Sequence record: NC_002730.1
Origin: Enterobacteria phage HK620
DNA: 38,297 bases
Reading direction: 5' to 3' (one strand)
A model generated the notes under the pieces. That model was given only the letters and a program-made list of their open reading frames with translations. It was not told where the DNA came from and ran no database searches. How positions within the stretch are numbered: position 1 is the stretch's first letter; each line of letters starts with the position of its first letter. The translations under genes were made by a program, and so were the position numbers. Below, piece after piece: positions 1,702 to 38,032 of the stretch.

Positions 1702-1726
1702 TAAAAAACCGCCATCAGGCGGCTTG
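1702..1726 (-). terminator. rho-independent terminator at the distal end of the leftward early operon
   Basis: Minus strand GC-rich hairpin (GCCGCC-TGAT-GGCGGT) followed by a T-run. Confidence 0.5.
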
Positions 1727-1788
1727 GTGTTCTTTCAGTTCTTCAATTCGAATATTGGTTACATTGTTTTCATATATGAATAAATAAA

Positions 1789-2001
1789 TTAGCTTTTTTC
1801 GTTGCCTTCGCTTTCTTTATTAATTTTAACAAACTCGTTTTTACCACGCTCTCCAAATGCGTCTTTAGAGTCGTTGTATCCGCAATCGCAGCACACATAA
1901 TCACCAGACCATCCACGCATTGTTTTTTCTTTTGCAATATTTCCAGAACCGCATTTTGGACAAGACATATCACTACCTCCAAAGCATGAGTGAGATGACA
2001 A
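1789..2001 (-). CDS. small zinc-ribbon protein (CPKCGS...CCDCGY), unknown function
   Basis: 70-aa ORF with two CxxC pairs; preferred over the overlapping 115-aa ORF in another frame. Confidence 0.5.
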   Translation of the reverse strand: MSSHSCFGGSDMSCPKCGSGNIAKEKTMRGWSGDYVCCDCGYNDSKDAFGERGKNEFVKINKESEGNEKS

Positions 2002-2064
2002 CGTAACATTGATTGGAGATTAACAATAGATTGCTGATGTAAAAGATATGTATAAGCTTCGCTT

Positions 2065-2598
2065 TCAAAGTGGAGGCTCTGGTAGCGGCATCCAGTGTGA
2101 CGGTTTCCACGACGCACCAGGAATTATCCACCCATCATTAGCGTCAGGATGACCCGGGATGTAAGTCGCCCATTTCATTCGCCAGTCACCTTTCCTGTCA
2201 AACTCCACGGCAACAAGAACGGCTGTTTTGGTATCCGGCATTCGATCACTACAGCTTATCCAACCATCCGGAGTTACCGGAGAGTTGCCATTTACATCGA
2301 AGTTTGGCTCTGCGTCCTGAACCAGGAGGATGTAACCATTCTTGGCAGTATCAAGTTCTAACGCCTCGGTGACGGTACCGAAATAGCGATTACCTAAATC
2401 CGCATCACAAGTGCTTACATCAATGGAAACCTCCATGCCTTCGATTAATTCTGGCAAGTTGTAAGTTTGGCTTACAGGTTCTGCTCCCAGTGATGCCAGT
2501 GCAATCCGTGCCACTTCCATTTGTTCGCCACGGGTAAGCCCGTTATCAAGCGGATTTTTAATGAATAATTCGATACGTTCTTTGGTAATAGTGGTCAT
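2065..2598 (-). CDS. EaA-like early accessory protein with C-terminal DUF551-type domain
   Basis: 177-aa ORF; Trp-rich C-terminal segment (DGWISCSDRMPD...GDWRMKW...HWMPLPEPP) typical of the DUF551 family. Confidence 0.65.
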   Translation of the reverse strand: MTTITKERIELFIKNPLDNGLTRGEQMEVARIALASLGAEPVSQTYNLPELIEGMEVSIDVSTCDADLGNRYFGTVTEALELDTAKNGYILLVQDAEPNFDVNGNSPVTPDGWISCSDRMPDTKTAVLVAVEFDRKGDWRMKWATYIPGHPDANDGWIIPGASWKPSHWMPLPEPPL

Positions 2599-2600
2599 AG

Positions 2601-2792
2601 CTATTTCACCTTAATCTCAACATTTCGCAGCTTTAGCTCTACTGGCAGGTCTGACTTTCCTGTTAATGCTAATGCGAGATTTTCTGGGGTAATGAGAGCA
2701 GTTATTGCTTTCCCCATTGCCAGACGAATAATTATTCGTATTTCGCGATCGTCACATGCTCCTGGTCGAACGATTGATATTTGTCCGTCCAT
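2601..2792 (-). CDS. hypothetical small protein
   Basis: 63-aa ORF tightly packed between neighbouring minus-strand genes. Confidence 0.45.
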   Translation of the reverse strand: MDGQISIVRPGACDDREIRIIIRLAMGKAITALITPENLALALTGKSDLPVELKLRNVEIKVK

Positions 2793-2793
2793 C

Positions 2794-3510
2794 TCACTCT
2801 CCTTTGATGCGAATGCCAGCGGCGCGGATTGCAGCGATGACTTCAGAAACTTTGTATGCCATTACCGTTTGGTAATCATCGTGAAAATCTGTTCGATGAA
2901 GCATGCTGCTACGTTCTGGGAGCAGTATTTCCCGATCCTCCAGTTCTGCAATGCGCTTCTCTGCGGCTTCCAGCTTCTCGCGCATATCGTCAACGTACTC
3001 GACCAGAGAACCGCCAGCAGGAATTTCGCACTCCTCGACCAGTTGGAAGTAGATATCAGCTGCGGCCCGTGTGTTGCTATGCCTAGCGTCGCCCATCTCA
3101 CCTTCACGAAGAGCATCGCGTTCGGCGGTAAGATTGGCTATTTTGCTGTCTTTGCCTTCCAGCTCAACGCGCAGCCTCCCTACCGTTAGCGCAATTTCCT
3201 CGTTCTCCTGGTCGCGGCGTTTGATGTATTGCTGTTTTCTTTCCAGCTCATCCAGCAGCGCCAAGACGGTAGCAGGATTGGCTGCGGCGATGAATTCAGC
3301 ATTGGCCTGCTGTTCCATTTGGAAATCTTCATCGAAACCGCTTTCTGGGTGCGCTCCTTCAATTCTGCAAATGGGAAGATATCCAACAACTTCACGATGA
3401 ATTAGCGCATCATCAGCATCAAATCTCTCCTCTCCATATTCGAGCGACCACACACCACTCGTTGCTTTCTCTGCCTTTTCACGCAGTGCCTGATAGTCAA
3501 TCTTGCTCAC
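2794..3510 (-). CDS. Ead/Ea22-like family protein
   Basis: 238-aa ORF; N-terminus [22 protein letters not shown] and coiled-coil middle typical of Ea22-like proteins. Confidence 0.7.
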   Translation of the reverse strand: MSKIDYQALREKAEKATSGVWSLEYGEERFDADDALIHREVVGYLPICRIEGAHPESGFDEDFQMEQQANAEFIAAANPATVLALLDELERKQQYIKRRDQENEEIALTVGRLRVELEGKDSKIANLTAERDALREGEMGDARHSNTRAAADIYFQLVEECEIPAGGSLVEYVDDMREKLEAAEKRIAELEDREILLPERSSMLHRTDFHDDYQTVMAYKVSEVIAAIRAAGIRIKGE

Positions 3511-4007
3511 TGGCTGCCTCCTTTGCGAAGCTGGTCGGCGAACAAACGTACACTAGACGCTTCACTGCGTAGAAACTTAACGGCATAATCAAAACCACCT
3601 CGTTCTGCGTCGTCTGCTACGTTGTCGAGGTTATCTGCGTACATCTCTACCCCCTGCGCCCGTACTTCAGCCAGGAAAGCGTCGGTAGTTGGGGTTTCAG
3701 TAACATCATCTTCCCATTCGCTAAACTCCTCACGACAAAAGTCATTAAATTCCTTCTCAGATTGCTTAAGCGAGGTATTTTCAGCAGCCATCTTCGCGCA
3801 TTTAGCCTCAAGGTTATCAATCGTGATTCCAGCAGAACGACACTCCCGCAACGCCGTTTCCAGTTTTGATTCAAGTTCACCGAACTTACGCACCAGATAT
3901 TCAGCGTTTGTTTCGTTAACCTTTAAATCTCGTGGGAAGCATTTACCTTTCAGAAAACCATCCATCTCAATTAGTGACATTTGTTTCATTTCTTCCCACT
4001 CCGCCAC
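3507..4007 (-). CDS. hypothetical acidic coiled-coil protein
   Basis: 166-aa ORF, overlapping start/stop with neighbours, same operon. Confidence 0.6.
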
Positions 4008-4167
4008 ATAGCATTCAGATATTTGTTTTGATTCACTGATGGAAAAGAATTTCTCTTAAGCAATTCTTCTCTCGATGGCATTGGCTTTACGCGTTGGCGA
4101 ATAATCATTTCTGCCGGAAGAATGCCGGGATTGTATGCAAGTCCTCTCATGGTAAATTCCTCAGTCA
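3986..4167 (-). CDS. hypothetical small protein, translationally coupled to the upstream gene
   Basis: Internal ATG ([15 protein letters not shown]...) overlaps the upstream stop in an ATGA arrangement. Confidence 0.45.
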
Positions 4168-4457
4168 TTACTGATAGCGCCATAGCGTGAGTGGTAATTA
4201 CGCAGGCGCGGGTCGATATATTCAGGGAAGTGGGTATATGTGGCTTTGCGGAATGGTCGGATTGATGTCTGGTAAATTCGCTCGCGTTCTTCTTTCTCTG
4301 CAAGCCATATACAATGGCGAAATTCCTTTTCCTCTTTCGTTTCCTGCGGTAGCGACATTATCCGATCGTAGTTTTTTCTGAATTTATCCAGCACCTCCGA
4401 TACGGAATTGCCGGAACAGCGGAGTGGGTCATCCGCACCATACAGAGGCGCTGGCAT
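4161..4457 (-). CDS. hypothetical protein
   Basis: 98-aa ORF in the early-left operon. Confidence 0.5.
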
Positions 4458-4480
4458 AATGGGAGCCTTATTTTCAGTAA

Positions 4481-5068
4481 TCAGAAAGGAGGGTAATCGT
4501 TCTGGCTGTAACCATAATCATCTGCATGATTCTGGCTTACGTTTTTAGAGCGATTGTCTTTATCTTTGAGGCTGGCAACCATGTTGGCGATAGTTTCTGG
4601 TTGCTTGCCTACCGCCTTTTCTTTAAGGGTTTGACCTGTTTGTGCAATAAACGGGATGCGTATTTCCATCTGGTAGCTGTCTGCGCCAGTCTTTTTGTTT
4701 GTGGTTAATACTTTCTGGAGCACTAACCCGATTTTCTTTCCATGAAATTCAGGAGCAACAAATTTACTGGCGGAAACCATATGTTGCGTTAATTGTCCAA
4801 TCCCGGCACACCCCATCATGGCGTGGACGACATTTGCGCCAAATTTATTTTCCGTTCCGTCATTTTTCTGAACACAAACGCTAAGATATTGGATTTTACG
4901 TCCGTCGTCGGATTCGCCAGAAAACTCAATAAATTTGGCTCCTTTTTCTGATTGCTTTAGTTCTGCTTCAGTAATGGTAATGATATGAGCGCCAGTTTCG
5001 TTAATAAAACCACCTTGCCCTGCGGTCAGTGCTGCTTCTTCGTTATAAGTAAAAATCACGTTGCTCAT
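4481..5068 (-). CDS. DUF669-family protein, likely ssDNA-binding partner of Sak4
   Basis: 195-aa ORF immediately downstream of, and overlapping, the Sak4-like gene. Confidence 0.6.
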   Translation of the reverse strand: MSNVIFTYNEEAALTAGQGGFINETGAHIITITEAELKQSEKGAKFIEFSGESDDGRKIQYLSVCVQKNDGTENKFGANVVHAMMGCAGIGQLTQHMVSASKFVAPEFHGKKIGLVLQKVLTTNKKTGADSYQMEIRIPFIAQTGQTLKEKAVGKQPETIANMVASLKDKDNRSKNVSQNHADDYGYSQNDYPPF

Positions 5069-5745
5069 GCGGCGTTTTCCTTAATTTGATGAACATTATT
5101 GATGCCGTAGTAATCACAAACAGTGGCATCGACGAAAGAGAGATCGTTATCAATCTCATTGGAGTCAAACATTCCCATTGGGGATTTAACAGTGTCTGCA
5201 CCGTTGTTTTTTGTGGTGAAAAAGAACTGGTCATCACGGGTAAGGGTGCGAAGAACTATAGTAAACATGCCTTCGACAGTGATTTTCTCGTCCAGCATTT
5301 TGCCGATAGTTTTCATTTTCACGCGCCCCATAGGGGTTTCTTCGGTGTGTGCAAGAAAATAGACTCTCAGGTCATCAGGTGCATCCTGTGCAGCCTTAAT
5401 CACCTCCCATGCGTGGCGGCCTATCTCAGTAAATTTATCAAACGATTTTTCTTCTGAGCGGCGCATAAACTCATTGCTCATCACATACTGGAAGTCATCA
5501 ACAATAACGATTCTTTTCCCGTATTCGTGAGCACGCTTAATTACGGCAACTATTACGTCCCATTTGTCAGTGGTAACTACGGTTCCTTTTTTTGCTCTGG
5601 CATCCCATGCCAGCCATTCTTTTGATTTAAAAGGTAGCGGCTTGCCTATTGGTTTTATAAGTATTGCTTCCTCTGGATTGATATTTCTCATGCTGGTTGA
5701 TTTTCCGGTGCCAGATTCACCGAGTATTAATGTCGCAGTTCCCAT
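5065..5745 (-). CDS. Sak4-like RecA-family recombination ATPase (AAA_24)
   Basis: 226-aa ORF with Walker A ILGESGTGKST near the N-terminus; sits where lambdoid phages carry recombination genes. Confidence 0.8.
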   Translation of the reverse strand: MGTATLILGESGTGKSTSMRNINPEEAILIKPIGKPLPFKSKEWLAWDARAKKGTVVTTDKWDVIVAVIKRAHEYGKRIVIVDDFQYVMSNEFMRRSEEKSFDKFTEIGRHAWEVIKAAQDAPDDLRVYFLAHTEETPMGRVKMKTIGKMLDEKITVEGMFTIVLRTLTRDDQFFFTTKNNGADTVKSPMGMFDSNEIDNDLSFVDATVCDYYGINNVHQIKENAA

Positions 5746-6052: not shown

Positions 6053-6185
6053 TTTTGGGAACTCCTGGCTGATTAAGTACGTCGATGAGTCGTTTCCATC
6101 CGTCACGTAATTTACGGGTGATTCGTTCAAGTAAAGATTCGGAAGGGCAGCCAGCAACAGGCCACCCTGCAATGGCATATTGCAT
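6045..6185 (-). CDS. cIII: CIII, FtsH protease inhibitor
   Basis: MQYAIAGWPVAGCPSESLLERITRKLRDGWKRLIDVLNQPGVPKNG is near-identical to lambda CIII as I recall it. Confidence 0.75.
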   Translation of the reverse strand: MQYAIAGWPVAGCPSESLLERITRKLRDGWKRLIDVLNQPGVPKNG

Positions 6186-6334
6186 GGTGTGCTCCTTATT
6201 TATACATAACGGAAAACGCCTCTCGTGAAGCGTTATTGGTATGCATATAAAAAGGCCCTCACATTGGAGGGCAAAGAAGATTTCCAATAATCAGAACAAG
6301 TCGGCTCCTGTTTAGTTACGAGCGACATTGCTCC

Positions 6335-6482: not shown

Positions 6483-6977
6483 ATGGATGTGTTATCTGGT
6501 ATAACTGCCGCGAAACAGGCTTATGATCTGCTGAAGACAATAAAAGAAACCAGAGACGATGCTGTTATCGCTAAAGCTATTGGTGATCTACACCAAAGAA
6601 TAACTGACTTACAGATGCTTAATGCGGAGCTCTCTGGCCTTTATCAGGCCGAGAAGGAGATCGCAATGAAGCTTCGAGATGAAAATAGAAAAATCAAGAT
6701 GTTTGTTGTGCAAGCTGAGAATTATGAACTTCATACAACTGAAGGTGGTTCTGTCGTGTATCGACCTAAGAGTCATTCCGATCATTCTATTCAGCAGCAT
6801 AACCTTTGTGCACATTGCTTCGGCGAACATAAAATATCGATACTTCAACCAAGCACGGTTACTATAAAATCTAATGGATTCTTTGTGCATTCATGTCCTC
6901 GCTGTAAGAATGAATACCGGATGTATAGAGCGCCAGACCCTAAGCCTGTATATGTACCGCCGCTGACAAATTATTAA
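6483..6977 (+). CDS. hypothetical protein: N-terminal coiled coil, C-terminal zinc ribbon (CAHC...CPRC); oriented against the leftward operon
   Basis: 164-aa ORF with ATG start; lower GC than neighbours; preceded by palindromes and direct repeats. Confidence 0.6.
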   Translation: MDVLSGITAAKQAYDLLKTIKETRDDAVIAKAIGDLHQRITDLQMLNAELSGLYQAEKEIAMKLRDENRKIKMFVVQAENYELHTTEGGSVVYRPKSHSDHSIQQHNLCAHCFGEHKISILQPSTVTIKSNGFFVHSCPRCKNEYRMYRAPDPKPVYVPPLTNY

Positions 6978-36787: not shown

Positions 36788-38032
36788 TTAATGCTTAAAT
36801 ACCTTCTGATTGTAATTTGTCTGCATGTGAATATTTTTGTTGTCGTTCATTTTTTTAGTGAAAAATCTAAACACAACAAACATACATAGCAATAGTTTAA
36901 TATTTCCAGAGAGATTGGTTATTATGGTTTCACTCATGAATTGAGTAATTAAACTCACACTAAGAACTGAATAAAGACCAAGCATAACAAGGTTTCCTGC
37001 TTTTGCAGACGAGTATATTGCAGACAAAAGCACTCCATATATCACAGCGCCAAAAGCAACCCCATAAATACCCATATCGCTATAGAACGGCTGCATTACA
37101 GAATAAACATTTGTTGGTGATGGAACATATACGTAATCAAGGATTGTCTTTACTGGTTCTACTGAAGAAATACCAATCTTATAATTAATCGCATTAATAA
37201 ATCTAAGGGTGTAGTCACCACTCCAATTAATTCCGGAATCAATCAATGTTCCAAATGCAATCAAAGGTGAATAAATATAAGTGCCAAAAATATAAGCTAT
37301 CGTCGCCGAGTCATCATCAGACATTCTATAAAAATGCATGATAATAATACACGCAAGAACTACTGGGGCATATATGAATATCTTCTTCATGCTTATGCCG
37401 TTTTTTAATTCGTATATGGTAACAAACATCATTATTGGTGTAATAACAGCAAACTTACCCATTGTACCAATTGCAAATAATAAAACCCATGTGCAAACAG
37501 AAATCTTATCTATCCACCTTGATTTGAATATACATATAGATGCAAACATTGCCATAATTACCGGGTAAAAAGATGGCATAAATATAAACGTCGGGTACTG
37601 ATAGTCATCTTCTATATTAGCAAGCCTAAGATTCAGCAAGAAATTAACAGGACCATTTGAACCAACCTTGTAAATTTCATAAGCTGTTATTAAGCAAGCG
37701 GGTATCGCTAACAATGAATATCTTGAGCATATCCTGTTTTTTTCTTTGATTTTATATTTTAATGGTTTGTTTCGTTGTGCAATTTCGAATACAGCATAAG
37801 AAAATGATGTTAATGATATCCATATCAACAAGCAGTAAAATGTTTCAACTCTGAAATCATAAAAGCTATCATAGGAAATAATTCCAGTAAAAGCCATAAA
37901 ATACCATGAGAATAGACTTAGCGATAACGGAGACGTAATTCTGCATCTCATATATTTTATAGCCAAAATATGCATGGCAGAACAAAGTACAAATATAATA
38001 ATAAGATATGTCATAAAATAAGCCCGCAACAA
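36788..38032 (-). CDS. polytopic integral membrane protein (at least 10 predicted TM helices), candidate lysogenic-conversion / O-antigen-modifying enzyme
   Basis: 414-aa ORF, markedly AT-rich versus the rest of the genome, aromatic-rich hydrophobic segments; lies between tailspike and int/att. Confidence 0.7.
   Translation of the reverse strand: MLRAYFMTYLIIIFVLCSAMHILAIKYMRCRITSPLSLSLFSWYFMAFTGIISYDSFYDFRVETFYCLLIWISLTSFSYAVFEIAQRNKPLKYKIKEKNRICSRYSLLAIPACLITAYEIYKVGSNGPVNFLLNLRLANIEDDYQYPTFIFMPSFYPVIMAMFASICIFKSRWIDKISVCTWVLLFAIGTMGKFAVITPIMMFVTIYELKNGISMKKIFIYAPVVLACIIIMHFYRMSDDDSATIAYIFGTYIYSPLIAFGTLIDSGINWSGDYTLRFINAINYKIGISSVEPVKTILDYVYVPSPTNVYSVMQPFYSDMGIYGVAFGAVIYGVLLSAIYSSAKAGNLVMLGLYSVLSVSLITQFMSETIITNLSGNIKLLLCMFVVFRFFTKKMNDNKNIHMQTNYNQKVFKH

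What the first reader, a model, noticed from the sequence alone, without database searches (positions are those of the whole stretch)
2065..4457. Ea-type accessory gene block with a tightly coupled small-gene pair
The distal leftward operon carries an EaA/DUF551-like protein, an Ea22-like protein, an acidic coiled-coil protein and two small ORFs (98 aa and 60 aa) joined by an ATGA overlap. These regions are variable in lambdoid phages and often hold host-takeover or anti-defence functions; the coupled pair has a toxin-antitoxin-like or two-subunit layout.
Basis: inference. Interest (0 to 1): 0.4.

Follow-up and report, generated by a model that had tools for sequence, protein, structure and literature searches.

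The report
Known Abc2 anti-RecBCD gene block
[quoted passage not shown] Its 98-aa gene is the well-studied RecBCD-hijacking protein Abc2, not a toxin, and the only open point is that the tiny uncharacterised gene after it (DUF2737) accompanied Abc2 in every related genome sampled.

Summary
The ORFs at 2065-4457 (minus strand) are real, conserved genes. The block matches phage HK633 at 99% identity and has the same gene order as P22 abc2-orf56-eaE...eaA-eaG.

- **98-aa ORF:** it is Abc2 (PF11043, E 3e-60). It is about 91-92% identical to P22 Abc2, whose structure on RecC is solved (8B1T). It lies directly after a Sak4-SSB recombination module, as in HK620.
- **"60-aa" ORF:** it is DUF2737 (P22 orf56). 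Its conserved start gives 54 aa and lies 10 nt after the Abc2 stop, so there is no ATGA overlap between the pair. The true ATGA overlap is one gene further on.
- **Toxin-antitoxin reading:** rejected. There is no TA family match and no promoter-like site of its own, and a third gene separates the pair in 21/79 relatives.
- **Two-subunit reading:** untested but not excluded. DUF2737 followed Abc2 in all 216 loci checked, across three Abc2 clades down to about 33-43% identity. However, DUF2737 also occurs without Abc2 in virulent Guernseyvirinae.

Verdict: already known; low interest, with one modest lead.

The parts
5065..5745 (-). Sak4-like single-strand annealing protein (HK620 hkaL type). 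Context: first gene of the recombination module upstream of the finding.
   Evidence: phrog_2872, E 3e-108. AAA_24, E 6e-7. HK620 module described in PMC5928155.
4481..5068 (-). Phage SSB (HK620 hkaK type), the cognate partner of Sak4. Context only.
   Evidence: phrog_743, E 1e-65. HK629 gp39 has the same arrangement. PMC5928155.
4161..4457 (-). abc2: Abc2 anti-RecBCD protein, 98 aa.
   Evidence: PF11043, E 3e-60, full length. phrog_656. PDB 8B1T, E 6e-55. 67/70 identical to P22 Abc2 over residues 1-70, with P68 conserved. dN/dS 0.13-0.21.
4151..4165 (-). Abc2 stop codon (4163-4161), the overlapping GAGGA Shine-Dalgarno sequence, and the 10-nt spacer before the DUF2737 ATG.
   Evidence: Sequence TGAGGAATTTACCATG. 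The 10-nt spacer is invariant in 80/80 loci. The junction is the same in P22, HK633 and HK629.
3986..4150 (-). DUF2737 gene (= P22 orf56, HK97 gp38), 54 aa, basic (pI 11).
   Evidence: PF10930, E 4e-31, with the model starting at residue 7 of the 60-aa form. phrog_1117. 75% identical to P22 orf56. P22 lacks the upstream ATG. dN/dS 0.08-0.49.
3507..3989 (-). EaE-like acidic protein, 160 aa from ATG 3989 (166 aa from GTG 4007). Its ATG overlaps the DUF2737 stop as ATGA.
   Evidence: phrog_614, E 3e-61. 62% identical to P22 EaE over 58 aa. HK633 gp32 is annotated as 483 nt. pI 4.5. This gene follows DUF2737 in 57/79 loci.
2794..3510 (-). Ead/Ea22-family protein, 238 aa. Its GTG start overlaps the EaE-like stop as GTGA.
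   Evidence: PF13935, E 2e-29. 37% identical to P22 EaD. No sequence match to any PDB chain, so none to a lambda Ea22 C-terminal domain.
2601..2792 (-).
   Evidence: phrog_1222, E 2e-39. HK633 gp30. dN/dS 0.15-0.32. No PDB, Pfam or NCBIfam match.
2065..2598 (-). EaA-N-terminus + DUF551 protein, 177 aa. It lacks the middle part of the 317-aa P22 EaA.
   Evidence: PF04448, E 3e-21. Blastp against P22 EaA: residues 1-42 are 86% identical and 102-177 are 45% identical. An almost invariant C-terminal block (residues 41-177) is joined to different N-terminal modules in relatives.
1789..1968 (-). eaG homologue, a zinc-ribbon protein of 59 aa from ATG 1968 (70 aa from TTG 2001).
   Evidence: 93% identical to P22 EaG. 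phrog_2945. Sub-threshold Lar_restr_allev match, E 1.4e-4.
1706..1725 (-). Intrinsic-terminator-like hairpin followed by a T-run, between eaG and xis.
   Evidence: 8-bp stem with 5 GC pairs, then TTTATTGCC. A pattern match only; function not tested.

Best explanation
The region is the promoter-distal part of the early-left (PL) operon of an HK620/HK633-type lambdoid phage. All genes are read leftward from one long transcript and are packed with 0-10 nt spacers or 4-nt overlaps.

- **Abc2 (98 aa):** it is the last gene of the recombination module Sak4-SSB-Abc2. [quoted passage not shown] This reprogrammes RecBCD so that it no longer responds to Chi and instead prepares DNA ends for the phage's own annealing protein. 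This step is inferred from about 91-92% identity and was not tested here.
- **DUF2737 (54 aa, basic):** it is translated from a Shine-Dalgarno sequence that overlaps the abc2 stop codon. It is a conserved companion of Abc2 with unknown function. Most likely it is a small host-binding peptide that acts on its own, because it also occurs in virulent phages that lack Abc2.
- **Downstream genes:** the EaE-like gene, the Ead/Ea22-family gene, the 63-aa gene, the EaA/DUF551 gene and eaG are the mosaic, exchangeable Ea accessory genes of P22-like phages. Of these, only the Ea22 family has a reported role, favouring lysogeny.
For: **Identity of the block**
- 99% DNA identity to phage HK633 over window 1750-4490, with the same annotated genes.
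- Same gene order as P22 abc2-orf56-eaE...eaD-eaI-eaA-eaG-xis-int.

**Abc2**
- PF11043, E 3e-60; phrog_656; PDB 8B1T, E 6e-55.
- 67/70 residues identical to P22 Abc2 over residues 1-70, a span that includes the modelled RecC-binding residues 3-66. P68 is conserved in all clades (PMC9836394).

**Module context**
- Sak4 and SSB lie immediately upstream, as in HK620 and HK629 (PMC5928155).

**Operon context**
- The lambda cIII thermoregulator lies upstream at 6140-6198.
- No promoter-like site was found inside the block.
- A terminator-like hairpin follows eaG.

**DUF2737**
- PF10930, E 4e-31.
- It is always downstream of Abc2: 79/79, 80/80, 46/46, 6/6 and 5/5 loci.
- It is present without any Abc2-like ORF in a whole Jerseyvirus genome.

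**Selection and mosaicism**
- Purifying selection on the genes measured, Abc2, DUF2737 and the 63-aa gene.
- Mosaicism of the Ea genes.
- Pro-lysogenic role of the Ea22 family (PMC7093339, PMC10834534).
Against: - Nothing contradicts the gene identities.
- The mechanism of this Abc2 rests on homology only.
- Co-expressing HK620 abc2 with sak4 did not stimulate oligonucleotide recombineering (PMC5928155).
- Purified Abc2 hardly changed RecBCD helicase activity in vitro (PMC9836394). What Abc2 actually does for a Sak4-type phage is therefore not established.
- The function assigned to DUF2737 is a guess. The AlphaFold2 model is poor (pLDDT 67, pTM 0.25), and there is no PDB, NCBIfam or PADLOC match.
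- The strict synteny with Abc2 argues somewhat against a fully independent role for DUF2737.
Confidence: 0.88

Rival explanations
1. Abc2 and DUF2737 form a two-component RecBCD-hijacking unit. DUF2737 binds Abc2, for example its conserved C-terminal tail that is disordered in the structure, or binds the Abc2-RecBCD complex, and is needed for the full in vivo effect such as recruiting the phage annealing protein or SSB.
For: - DUF2737 lies immediately downstream of Abc2 in every locus examined, across three Abc2 clades.
  - Classical clade: 79/79 and 80/80 loci, with an invariant 10-nt spacer.
  - mEp021 clade: 46/46 loci. Abc2 is about 43% identical; DUF2737 homology by hhalign has probability 94%, E 1e-7.
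  - P0281-like clade: 5/5 loci. Abc2 is 33-34% identical; core HMM E 1e-7 to 7e-18.
- The genes on either side vary.
- The Shine-Dalgarno sequence overlaps the abc2 stop.
- Purified Abc2 alone has little effect on RecBCD in vitro, and its C-terminus is unassigned (PMC9836394).
Against: - DUF2737 occurs without any Abc2-like ORF in a complete Jerseyvirus genome. Its phage-record hits also include many Guernseyvirinae: 645 records for DUF2737 against 230 for Abc2.
- Alleles reassort freely. Stx2 phages carry Abc2 at 61% and DUF2737 at 93% identity; P22 carries Abc2 at 91% and DUF2737 at 75%; HK629 carries Abc2 at 100% and DUF2737 at 85%.
- A third gene can sit between them.
- No Abc2-DUF2737 fusion was found among 1.84 billion representative proteins.
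- The RecBCD-Abc2 complex was purified and solved without it (PMC9836394). From my memory of Murphy's work, abc2 expressed alone gave the anti-RecBCD phenotypes.
Confidence: 0.15
2. The 98-aa and 60-aa genes are a toxin-antitoxin-like addiction or abortive module embedded in the phage.
For: Only the layout supports this: two small adjacent genes, one near-neutral (pI 7.8) and one very basic (pI 11), separated by a very short spacer.
Against: - The 98-aa protein is Abc2, with a solved RecC-bound structure.
- No TA-family Pfam hit for either protein and no PADLOC hit.
- No promoter-like site upstream.
- In all loci examined the pair sits in phage early-left or recombination-module context, never as a free-standing cassette.
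- The pair is separable by an inserted gene.
- DUF2737 stands alone in virulent phages.
Confidence: 0.02
3. One or more of the Ea-type genes (EaE-like, Ea22-like, the 63-aa gene, DUF551, EaG) is an anti-defence or restriction-alleviation factor rather than a lysogeny modulator.
For: - These genes sit in a highly mosaic, exchangeable accessory region.
- EaG has a sub-threshold match to the Lar restriction-alleviation zinc ribbon (E 1.4e-4, below the gathering score).
- The DUF551 domain is found fused to other modules in other phage proteins, including a dATP/dGTP pyrophosphohydrolase said to inhibit host restriction (PMC10834534).
Against: - No significant match to any characterised anti-defence or defence family.
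- The only experimental data for the family (Ea22) point to a pro-lysogenic effect (PMC7093339).
- Structure prediction of the DUF551 protein failed (pLDDT 40), so there is no fold evidence.
Confidence: 0.12

Closest known systems
Phage P22 abc2-orf56-ea region (abc2, orf56, eaE, orf45, eaF, eaD, eaI, eaA, eaG; NC_002371 26.9-23.5 kb)
   Same: - Same order and orientation between the recombination genes and xis-int.
- Identities to the P22 proteins: Abc2 about 91-92%, orf56/DUF2737 75%, EaG 93%, EaA N-terminus 86% and C-terminus 45%, EaE central part 62%, EaD 37%.
- Same 10-nt abc2-orf56 junction.
   Different: - P22 has Erf, Arf and Abc1 upstream of Abc2, where the window has Sak4 and SSB.
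- The window lacks eaF, orf45, eaI and eaC.
- The window has a 63-aa gene with no P22 counterpart.
- Its EaA-like protein lacks the middle part of the 317-aa P22 EaA.
Coliphages HK633 (gp28-gp34), HK629 and HK620 (hkaJ/abc2 with hkaK, hkaL)
   Same: - HK633 is 99% identical over window 1750-4490, with the same seven genes annotated.
- HK629 has the same Sak4-SSB-Abc2-DUF2737 order, with Abc2 100% identical.
- The HK620 module sak4-ssb-abc2 is described and tested in PMC5928155.
- The window's tailspike carries the HK620 C-terminal domain.
   Different: - HK633 carries Erf plus a gp40-type gene instead of Sak4-SSB. The similarity breaks 33 nt upstream of abc2.
- HK629 has an HNH endonuclease and different Ea genes after DUF2737.
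- No complete E. coli genome carries the whole block as one piece; the best coverage is 75%.
Lambda exo-xis region (ea22, ea8.5, orf60a, orf61, orf63)
   Same: - Same position, between the recombination genes and xis.
- Early expression from PL.
- Contains an Ead/Ea22-family coiled-coil protein reported to favour lysogeny.
   Different: - The window's Ea22-like protein matched no PDB chain by sequence, so none for a lambda Ea22 C-terminal domain.
- None of the block's proteins matched the lambda exo-xis small-gene families in the Pfam and PHROG scans, although I made no direct comparison with lambda.
- Lambda uses Gam, not Abc2, against RecBCD.
Other phage RecBCD antagonists: lambda Gam, T7 gp5.9
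   Same: Small early proteins that neutralise RecBCD and sit beside the phage recombination genes (PMC9836394; PMC12315714).
   Different: Gam and gp5.9 are DNA mimics that block the DNA-binding site and inhibit all RecBCD activities. [quoted passage not shown]

Membership tests
Abc2 (PF11043, phage P22 anti-RecBCD protein 2) | Full-length sequence match above the curated threshold | tested here: met
   200.8 bits against a cut-off of 25, covering residues 1-98 on model positions 1-97. phrog_656, E 5e-55. PDB 8B1T chain A, E 6e-55.
Abc2 (PF11043, phage P22 anti-RecBCD protein 2) | Conservation of the RecC-contacting helical region (residues 3-66 modelled in 8B1T) and of Pro68, which enters the PpiB active site | tested here: met
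   67/70 identical to P22 Abc2 over residues 1-70. P68 is present, and that column is conserved in all three clades. Structural roles are taken from PMC9836394.
Abc2 (PF11043, phage P22 anti-RecBCD protein 2) | Located at the distal end of the phage recombination module in the early-left operon | tested here: met
   Order Sak4-SSB-Abc2, as in HK620 and HK629. Erf is upstream in most relatives.
Abc2 (PF11043, phage P22 anti-RecBCD protein 2) | Binds RecC and abolishes the Chi response of RecBCD | not testable with these tools
   Needs biochemistry or genetics. Inferred from about 91-92% identity only.
DUF2737 (PF10930; P22 orf56, HK97 gp38) | Sequence match above the curated threshold, including the conserved core P-x-P-[ST]-R-x-E-L-x-x-R-x-S-F ... 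N-K-Y-L-N | tested here: met
   107.2 bits against a cut-off of 25. 75% identical to P22 orf56. Core shown in the alignments.
Type II toxin-antitoxin module | At least one partner belongs to a recognised toxin or antitoxin family, or has a DNA-binding antitoxin domain | tested here: not met
   Pfam returns only PF11043 and PF10930. NCBIfam and PADLOC return nothing.
Type II toxin-antitoxin module | Autonomous bicistronic operon with its own promoter, found as a mobile two-gene cassette | tested here: not met
   No promoter-like site upstream of abc2 (a consensus scan only). The pair is always embedded after the recombination genes. It is split by a third gene in 21/79 and 3/5 loci.
Type II toxin-antitoxin module | One protein is toxic and the other neutralises it | not testable with these tools
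   Requires expression experiments.
Ead/Ea22 family (PF13935) | N-terminal segment plus central coiled-coil matching the family model | tested here: met
   103.3 bits against a cut-off of 27, covering residues 2-191.
Ead/Ea22 family (PF13935) | Lambda-type Ea22 C-terminal domain (NMR structure) | tested here: not met
   No PDB sequence match below E 0.6. C-terminal domains are known to differ between Ea22 variants (PMC10834534).
P22 EaA / DUF551 (PF04448) | C-terminal DUF551 domain | tested here: met
   76.5 bits against a cut-off of 22, covering residues 112-176.
P22 EaA / DUF551 (PF04448) | Full EaA architecture (317 aa, N-terminal segment + central region + DUF551) | tested here: not met
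   Only residues 1-42 and 102-177 align to EaA residues 1-42 and 245-317. The central part is absent.

The most novel reading that the evidence does not exclude
DUF2737 (P22 orf56) may be an unrecognised member of the phage RecBCD-hijacking or recombination module. It could partner with Abc2, possibly through Abc2's conserved but structurally unassigned C-terminal tail, or it could be a parallel effector on the same host pathway. Either role would help explain why purified Abc2 alone barely changes RecBCD activity in vitro. The support is purely comparative: the Abc2-DUF2737 adjacency held in all 216 loci checked, across three clades in which Abc2 has diverged to about 33-43% identity, while the flanking genes vary.
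Probability: 0.15. Interest if true: 0.45.

Novelty: already known. Interest (0 to 1): 0.15.

Why it matters
As given, it matters little. The block is a textbook P22/HK620-type arrangement that is already annotated in public phage genomes, and the 'toxin-antitoxin-like pair' is Abc2 plus a known domain of unknown function.

The one useful by-product is a concrete, cheap hypothesis. The 54-aa DUF2737 protein accompanied Abc2 in every locus sampled, yet it is not mentioned in the recombination papers read here (PMC9836394, PMC5928155, PMC12315714), and a full-text search for 'DUF2737' found no paper. How Abc2 redirects RecBCD toward phage recombinases is still unresolved (PMC9836394). Testing orf56 alongside Abc2, Abc1 and Arf would therefore be a reasonable addition to that work.

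Tried and rejected
- **Structure of DUF2737:** AlphaFold2 on a 44-sequence alignment gave pLDDT 67 and pTM 0.25, with three short helices. This was too weak for a fold search, so I ran none.
- **Structure of the DUF551 protein:** the model failed (pLDDT 40). The 120 listed homologues are nearly identical in the C-terminal block, so the alignment carries no depth.
- **PDB sequence or profile searches:** nothing significant for DUF2737, the EaE-like protein, the 63-aa protein, DUF551 or the Ea22-like protein.
- **NCBIfam and PADLOC scans of the block:** no meaningful hits.
- **Search for an Abc2-DUF2737 fusion:** only 45 Abc2 hits among 1.84 billion representatives, mostly fragments, and no fusion.
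- **Context of the distant Abc2 relative P0278:** no locus found in viral contigs.
- **Plus-strand ORFs inside the block (2692-3189, 3071-3400, 3622-4011):** judged to be antisense shadows of the real genes. Two have no family match. The third matches only a PHROG of unknown function and has the serine/leucine-rich composition typical of the reverse strand of a coiled-coil gene.
- **Rfam:** no RNA family inside 2065-4457.
- **HK620 record:** NC_002730 is not in the phage collection, so I could not confirm that the window is HK620 itself.
- **Literature:** no paper mentions DUF2737. The only 'orf56' hit in a P22-like genome paper refers to a different phage, and the DUF2737 homologue there (ORF59) is listed as function unknown.
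Full report
**What is in the sequence**

Between 1789 and 5745 the minus strand carries an unbroken run of tightly packed ORFs. Their identities come from the Pfam and PHROG scans. In the direction of transcription they are:

| Coordinates | Size | Identity | Evidence |
|---|---|---|---|
| 5745-5065 | 226 aa | Sak4-like annealing protein | phrog_2872, E 3e-108 |
| 5068-4481 | 195 aa | Phage SSB | phrog_743, E 1e-65 |
| 4457-4161 | 98 aa | Abc2 | see below |
| 4150-3986 | 54 aa | DUF2737 | see below |
| 3989-3507 | 160 aa | Acidic EaE-like protein | phrog_614, E 3e-61 |
| 3510-2794 | 238 aa | Ead/Ea22-family protein | PF13935, E 2e-29 |
| 2792-2601 | 63 aa | Unknown function | phrog_1222, E 2e-39 |
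| 2598-2065 | 177 aa | DUF551 protein | PF04448, E 3e-21 |
| 1968-1789 | 59 aa | Zinc-ribbon protein (EaG) | phrog_2945, E 3e-31 |

After the last gene come a terminator-like hairpin (1725-1706), xis (1657-1457) and a tyrosine integrase (1243-50). Upstream, Rfam finds the lambda cIII thermoregulator at 6140-6198. This is therefore the far end of a lambdoid early-left operon. The consensus scan found no promoter-like site on the minus strand inside the block.

**The 98-aa ORF is Abc2**

- It matches Pfam PF11043 ("Bacteriophage P22, anti-RecBCD protein 2") over its whole length at E 3e-60, and PHROG 656 "abc2 anti-RecBCD".
- It matches the Abc2 chain of PDB entries 8B1T and 8B1U at E 6e-55.
- It is about 91-92% identical to P22 Abc2 overall, and 67/70 identical over residues 1-70. 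That span contains residues 3-66, which are modelled on RecC, and Pro68, which is proposed to sit in the PpiB active site (PMC9836394).
- Its position, immediately after Sak4 and its cognate SSB, is the HK620 recombination module (hkaM, sak4, ssb, abc2) described in PMC5928155. HK629 has the same arrangement.

**The "60-aa" ORF is DUF2737, and the overlap is not there**

- The ORF matches PF10930 (E 4e-31) and phrog_1117, and is 75% identical to P22 orf56.
- Both family models begin at residue 7 of the 60-aa reading, which is the ATG at 4150.
- Abc2 ends ...AAT GAC TGA. The upstream ATG sits inside AATGAC and would give an 8-nt overlap (ATGACTGA), not ATGA.
- In P22 the same position reads AATAAC, so that ATG is absent, while the downstream ATG and the spacer are conserved.
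- The gene therefore encodes 54 aa and starts 10 nt after the abc2 stop, with GAGGA overlapping that stop.
- The 10-nt spacer is the same in 80/80 loci.
- True 4-nt overlaps occur one and two genes further on: ATGA at 3989-3986 and GTGA at 3510-3507.

**The block is already known**

- Megablast finds phage HK633 at 99% identity over window 1750-4490, annotated with the same genes: DUF551, hypothetical, ead/Ea22-like, hypothetical, DUF2737, abc2.
- P22 has the same order: abc2, orf56, eaE, orf45, eaF, eaD, eaI, eaA, eaG, eaC, xis, int.
- Protein comparisons with P22:
  - EaG is 93% identical.
  - The 177-aa protein shares EaA's first 42 residues (86%) and its DUF551 end (45%) but lacks EaA's middle.
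  - The 160/166-aa protein matches the centre of EaE (62%).
  - The 238-aa protein matches EaD (37%).
- Pieces of the block occur in 3,220 of 5,426 complete E. coli genomes, but never as one piece with at least 80% coverage. This reflects the known mosaicism of the region.
- The HK633 similarity ends 33 nt upstream of abc2, where Erf-type and Sak4-type recombination modules are exchanged.
- The genes are under purifying selection, with dN/dS of 0.08-0.49.

**Testing the toxin-antitoxin and two-subunit idea**

Against a TA module:
- Neither protein hits any TA family, and there is no PADLOC hit.
- No promoter-like site precedes the pair.
- The pair is always embedded in phage early-left or recombination-module context.
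- In 21 of 79 close relatives a 96-aa gene (phrog_154) is inserted between abc2 and DUF2737, reusing the same junction sequence.

On partnership, I examined conserved adjacency. DUF2737 follows Abc2 in every group sampled:

| Sample | Loci with the pair |
|---|---|
| Abc2-seeded viral contigs (one further contig ends 40 nt after abc2) | 79/79 |
| DUF2737-seeded viral contigs | 80/80 |
| Loci from GTDB species genomes (Escherichia, Intestinirhabdus, Shimwellia) | 6/6 |
| mEp021-type clade | 46/46 |
| P0281-like clade | 5/5 |

- In the mEp021-type clade, Abc2 is only about 43% identical to the window's. The downstream 74-aa protein shares only the DUF2737 core. Hhalign gives probability 94% and E 1e-7, while Pfam gives E 0.006, below its threshold.
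- In the P0281-like clade, Abc2 is 33-34% identical. DUF2737 follows directly or after the same optional phrog_154-like gene.
- The gene before Abc2 and the gene after DUF2737 vary.
- The two viral-contig samples share some contigs, so the 216 loci are not all independent.

Evidence against an obligate complex:
- DUF2737 hits 645 phage records against 230 for Abc2, and its hits include many virulent Guernseyvirinae.
- A complete Jerseyvirus genome has DUF2737 (E 4e-12) but no Abc2-like ORF (best E 9).
- Alleles of the two genes reassort.
- No fusion protein exists among the 45 Abc2 relatives found in 1.84 billion representatives.
- The RecBCD-Abc2 structure and its biochemistry were obtained without orf56 (PMC9836394).

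I therefore rate partnership at about 0.15. The more likely reading is that DUF2737 is an independent small early protein that is strongly linked to abc2.

**What DUF2737 looks like**

- It has 54 aa, pI 11 and five prolines.
- Its conserved core is P-x-P-[ST]-R-x-E-L-x-x-R-x-S-F...N-K-Y-L-N. The N-terminus and the last few residues are variable.
- AlphaFold2 gives three short helices at low confidence.
- There is no PDB relative and no literature.

**The Ea genes**

- The Ea22 family has a reported pro-lysogenic effect, and its C-terminal domains are exchangeable (PMC7093339, PMC10834534).
- The window's protein has the family's N-terminal and coiled-coil part, but it matched no PDB chain by sequence, so none for a lambda Ea22 C-terminal domain.
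- In the DUF551 protein, an almost invariant 135-aa C-terminal block is attached in relatives to EaA-type or Ea22-type N-termini.
- Nothing links any of these genes to a known defence or anti-defence family. EaG's match to the Lar zinc ribbon is below threshold.

**Verdict**

- It is wrong in its specific suggestion of a toxin-antitoxin pair.
- The feature is already known and ordinary.
- The only lead worth recording is the strict Abc2-DUF2737 synteny.

Noticed in passing
window 6140-6198 (-): Rfam match to the lambda cIII thermoregulator element (RF01804, 88.5 bits, E 2e-20), overlapping the start of a lambda-like cIII gene.
   Followed up: no
window 6483-6977 (+): A 164-aa ORF lies on the opposite strand in the middle of the leftward operon (phrog_1244, unknown function). 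It has CxxC...CxxC motifs near its C-terminus. Its position resembles that of the sieB-type exclusion genes of P22. No Pfam or NCBIfam match, and only a chance-level PADLOC hit.
   Followed up: partly
window 1706-1725 (-): A strong intrinsic-terminator-like hairpin (AAGCCGCC-TGAT-GGCGGTTT plus a T-run) lies between eaG and xis, at the end of the Ea block.
   Followed up: no
window 3071-3400 (+): An antisense 109-aa ORF inside the Ea22-like gene matches phrog_13760 (E 3e-23). It is serine/leucine-rich, as expected for the reverse strand of a coiled-coil gene. It is probably a shadow ORF that has been annotated in some phage genomes.
   Followed up: partly
L025, L014, L027 and 18 other loci, between abc2 and DUF2737; also L222, L225, L226: An optional ~96-aa gene (phrog_154, labelled 'replication initiation protein') is inserted exactly between abc2 and DUF2737. 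It occurs in 21/79 E. coli-type loci and in 3/5 loci of a distant Abc2 clade, and it reuses the same Shine-Dalgarno junction.
   Followed up: partly
L141 40977-41132 (Salmonella phage vB_SenS-Ent2); L086 2941-3099 (Kagunavirus fEg-Eco06): The DUF2737 core is conserved (about 66% identity over 38 aa) in virulent Guernseyvirinae. There it sits in a cluster of small early genes, and no Abc2-like ORF is found anywhere in the Jerseyvirus genome.
   Followed up: yes
window ~4458-4490: A mosaic breakpoint: 99% identity to HK633 stops 33 nt upstream of abc2. HK633 and most relatives carry an Erf-type module where the window has Sak4 + SSB, so one abc2 allele serves unrelated annealing proteins.
   Followed up: partly
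L222-L226, ORFs after the DUF2737-like gene; window 3507-3989: EaE-like proteins share a central ETPATDAxLAEIRAQG motif and a C-terminal QLRKxxGx ending. They also follow DUF2737 in the distant clade and in 57/79 close loci, so abc2-DUF2737-eaE may be a conserved triad.
   Followed up: partly
window 36788-38032 (-): A 414-aa ORF next to the HK620-type tailspike gene has a weak, sub-threshold match to the O-antigen polymerase family (PF01901, E 2.5e-4). It is possibly a serotype-conversion membrane protein.
   Followed up: no
whole window: From memory, the window length (38,297 bases) equals the published genome length of phage HK620. The tailspike has the HK620-specific C-terminal domain (PF22424). 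The HK620 record is not in the phage collection, so identity could not be checked.
   Followed up: partly
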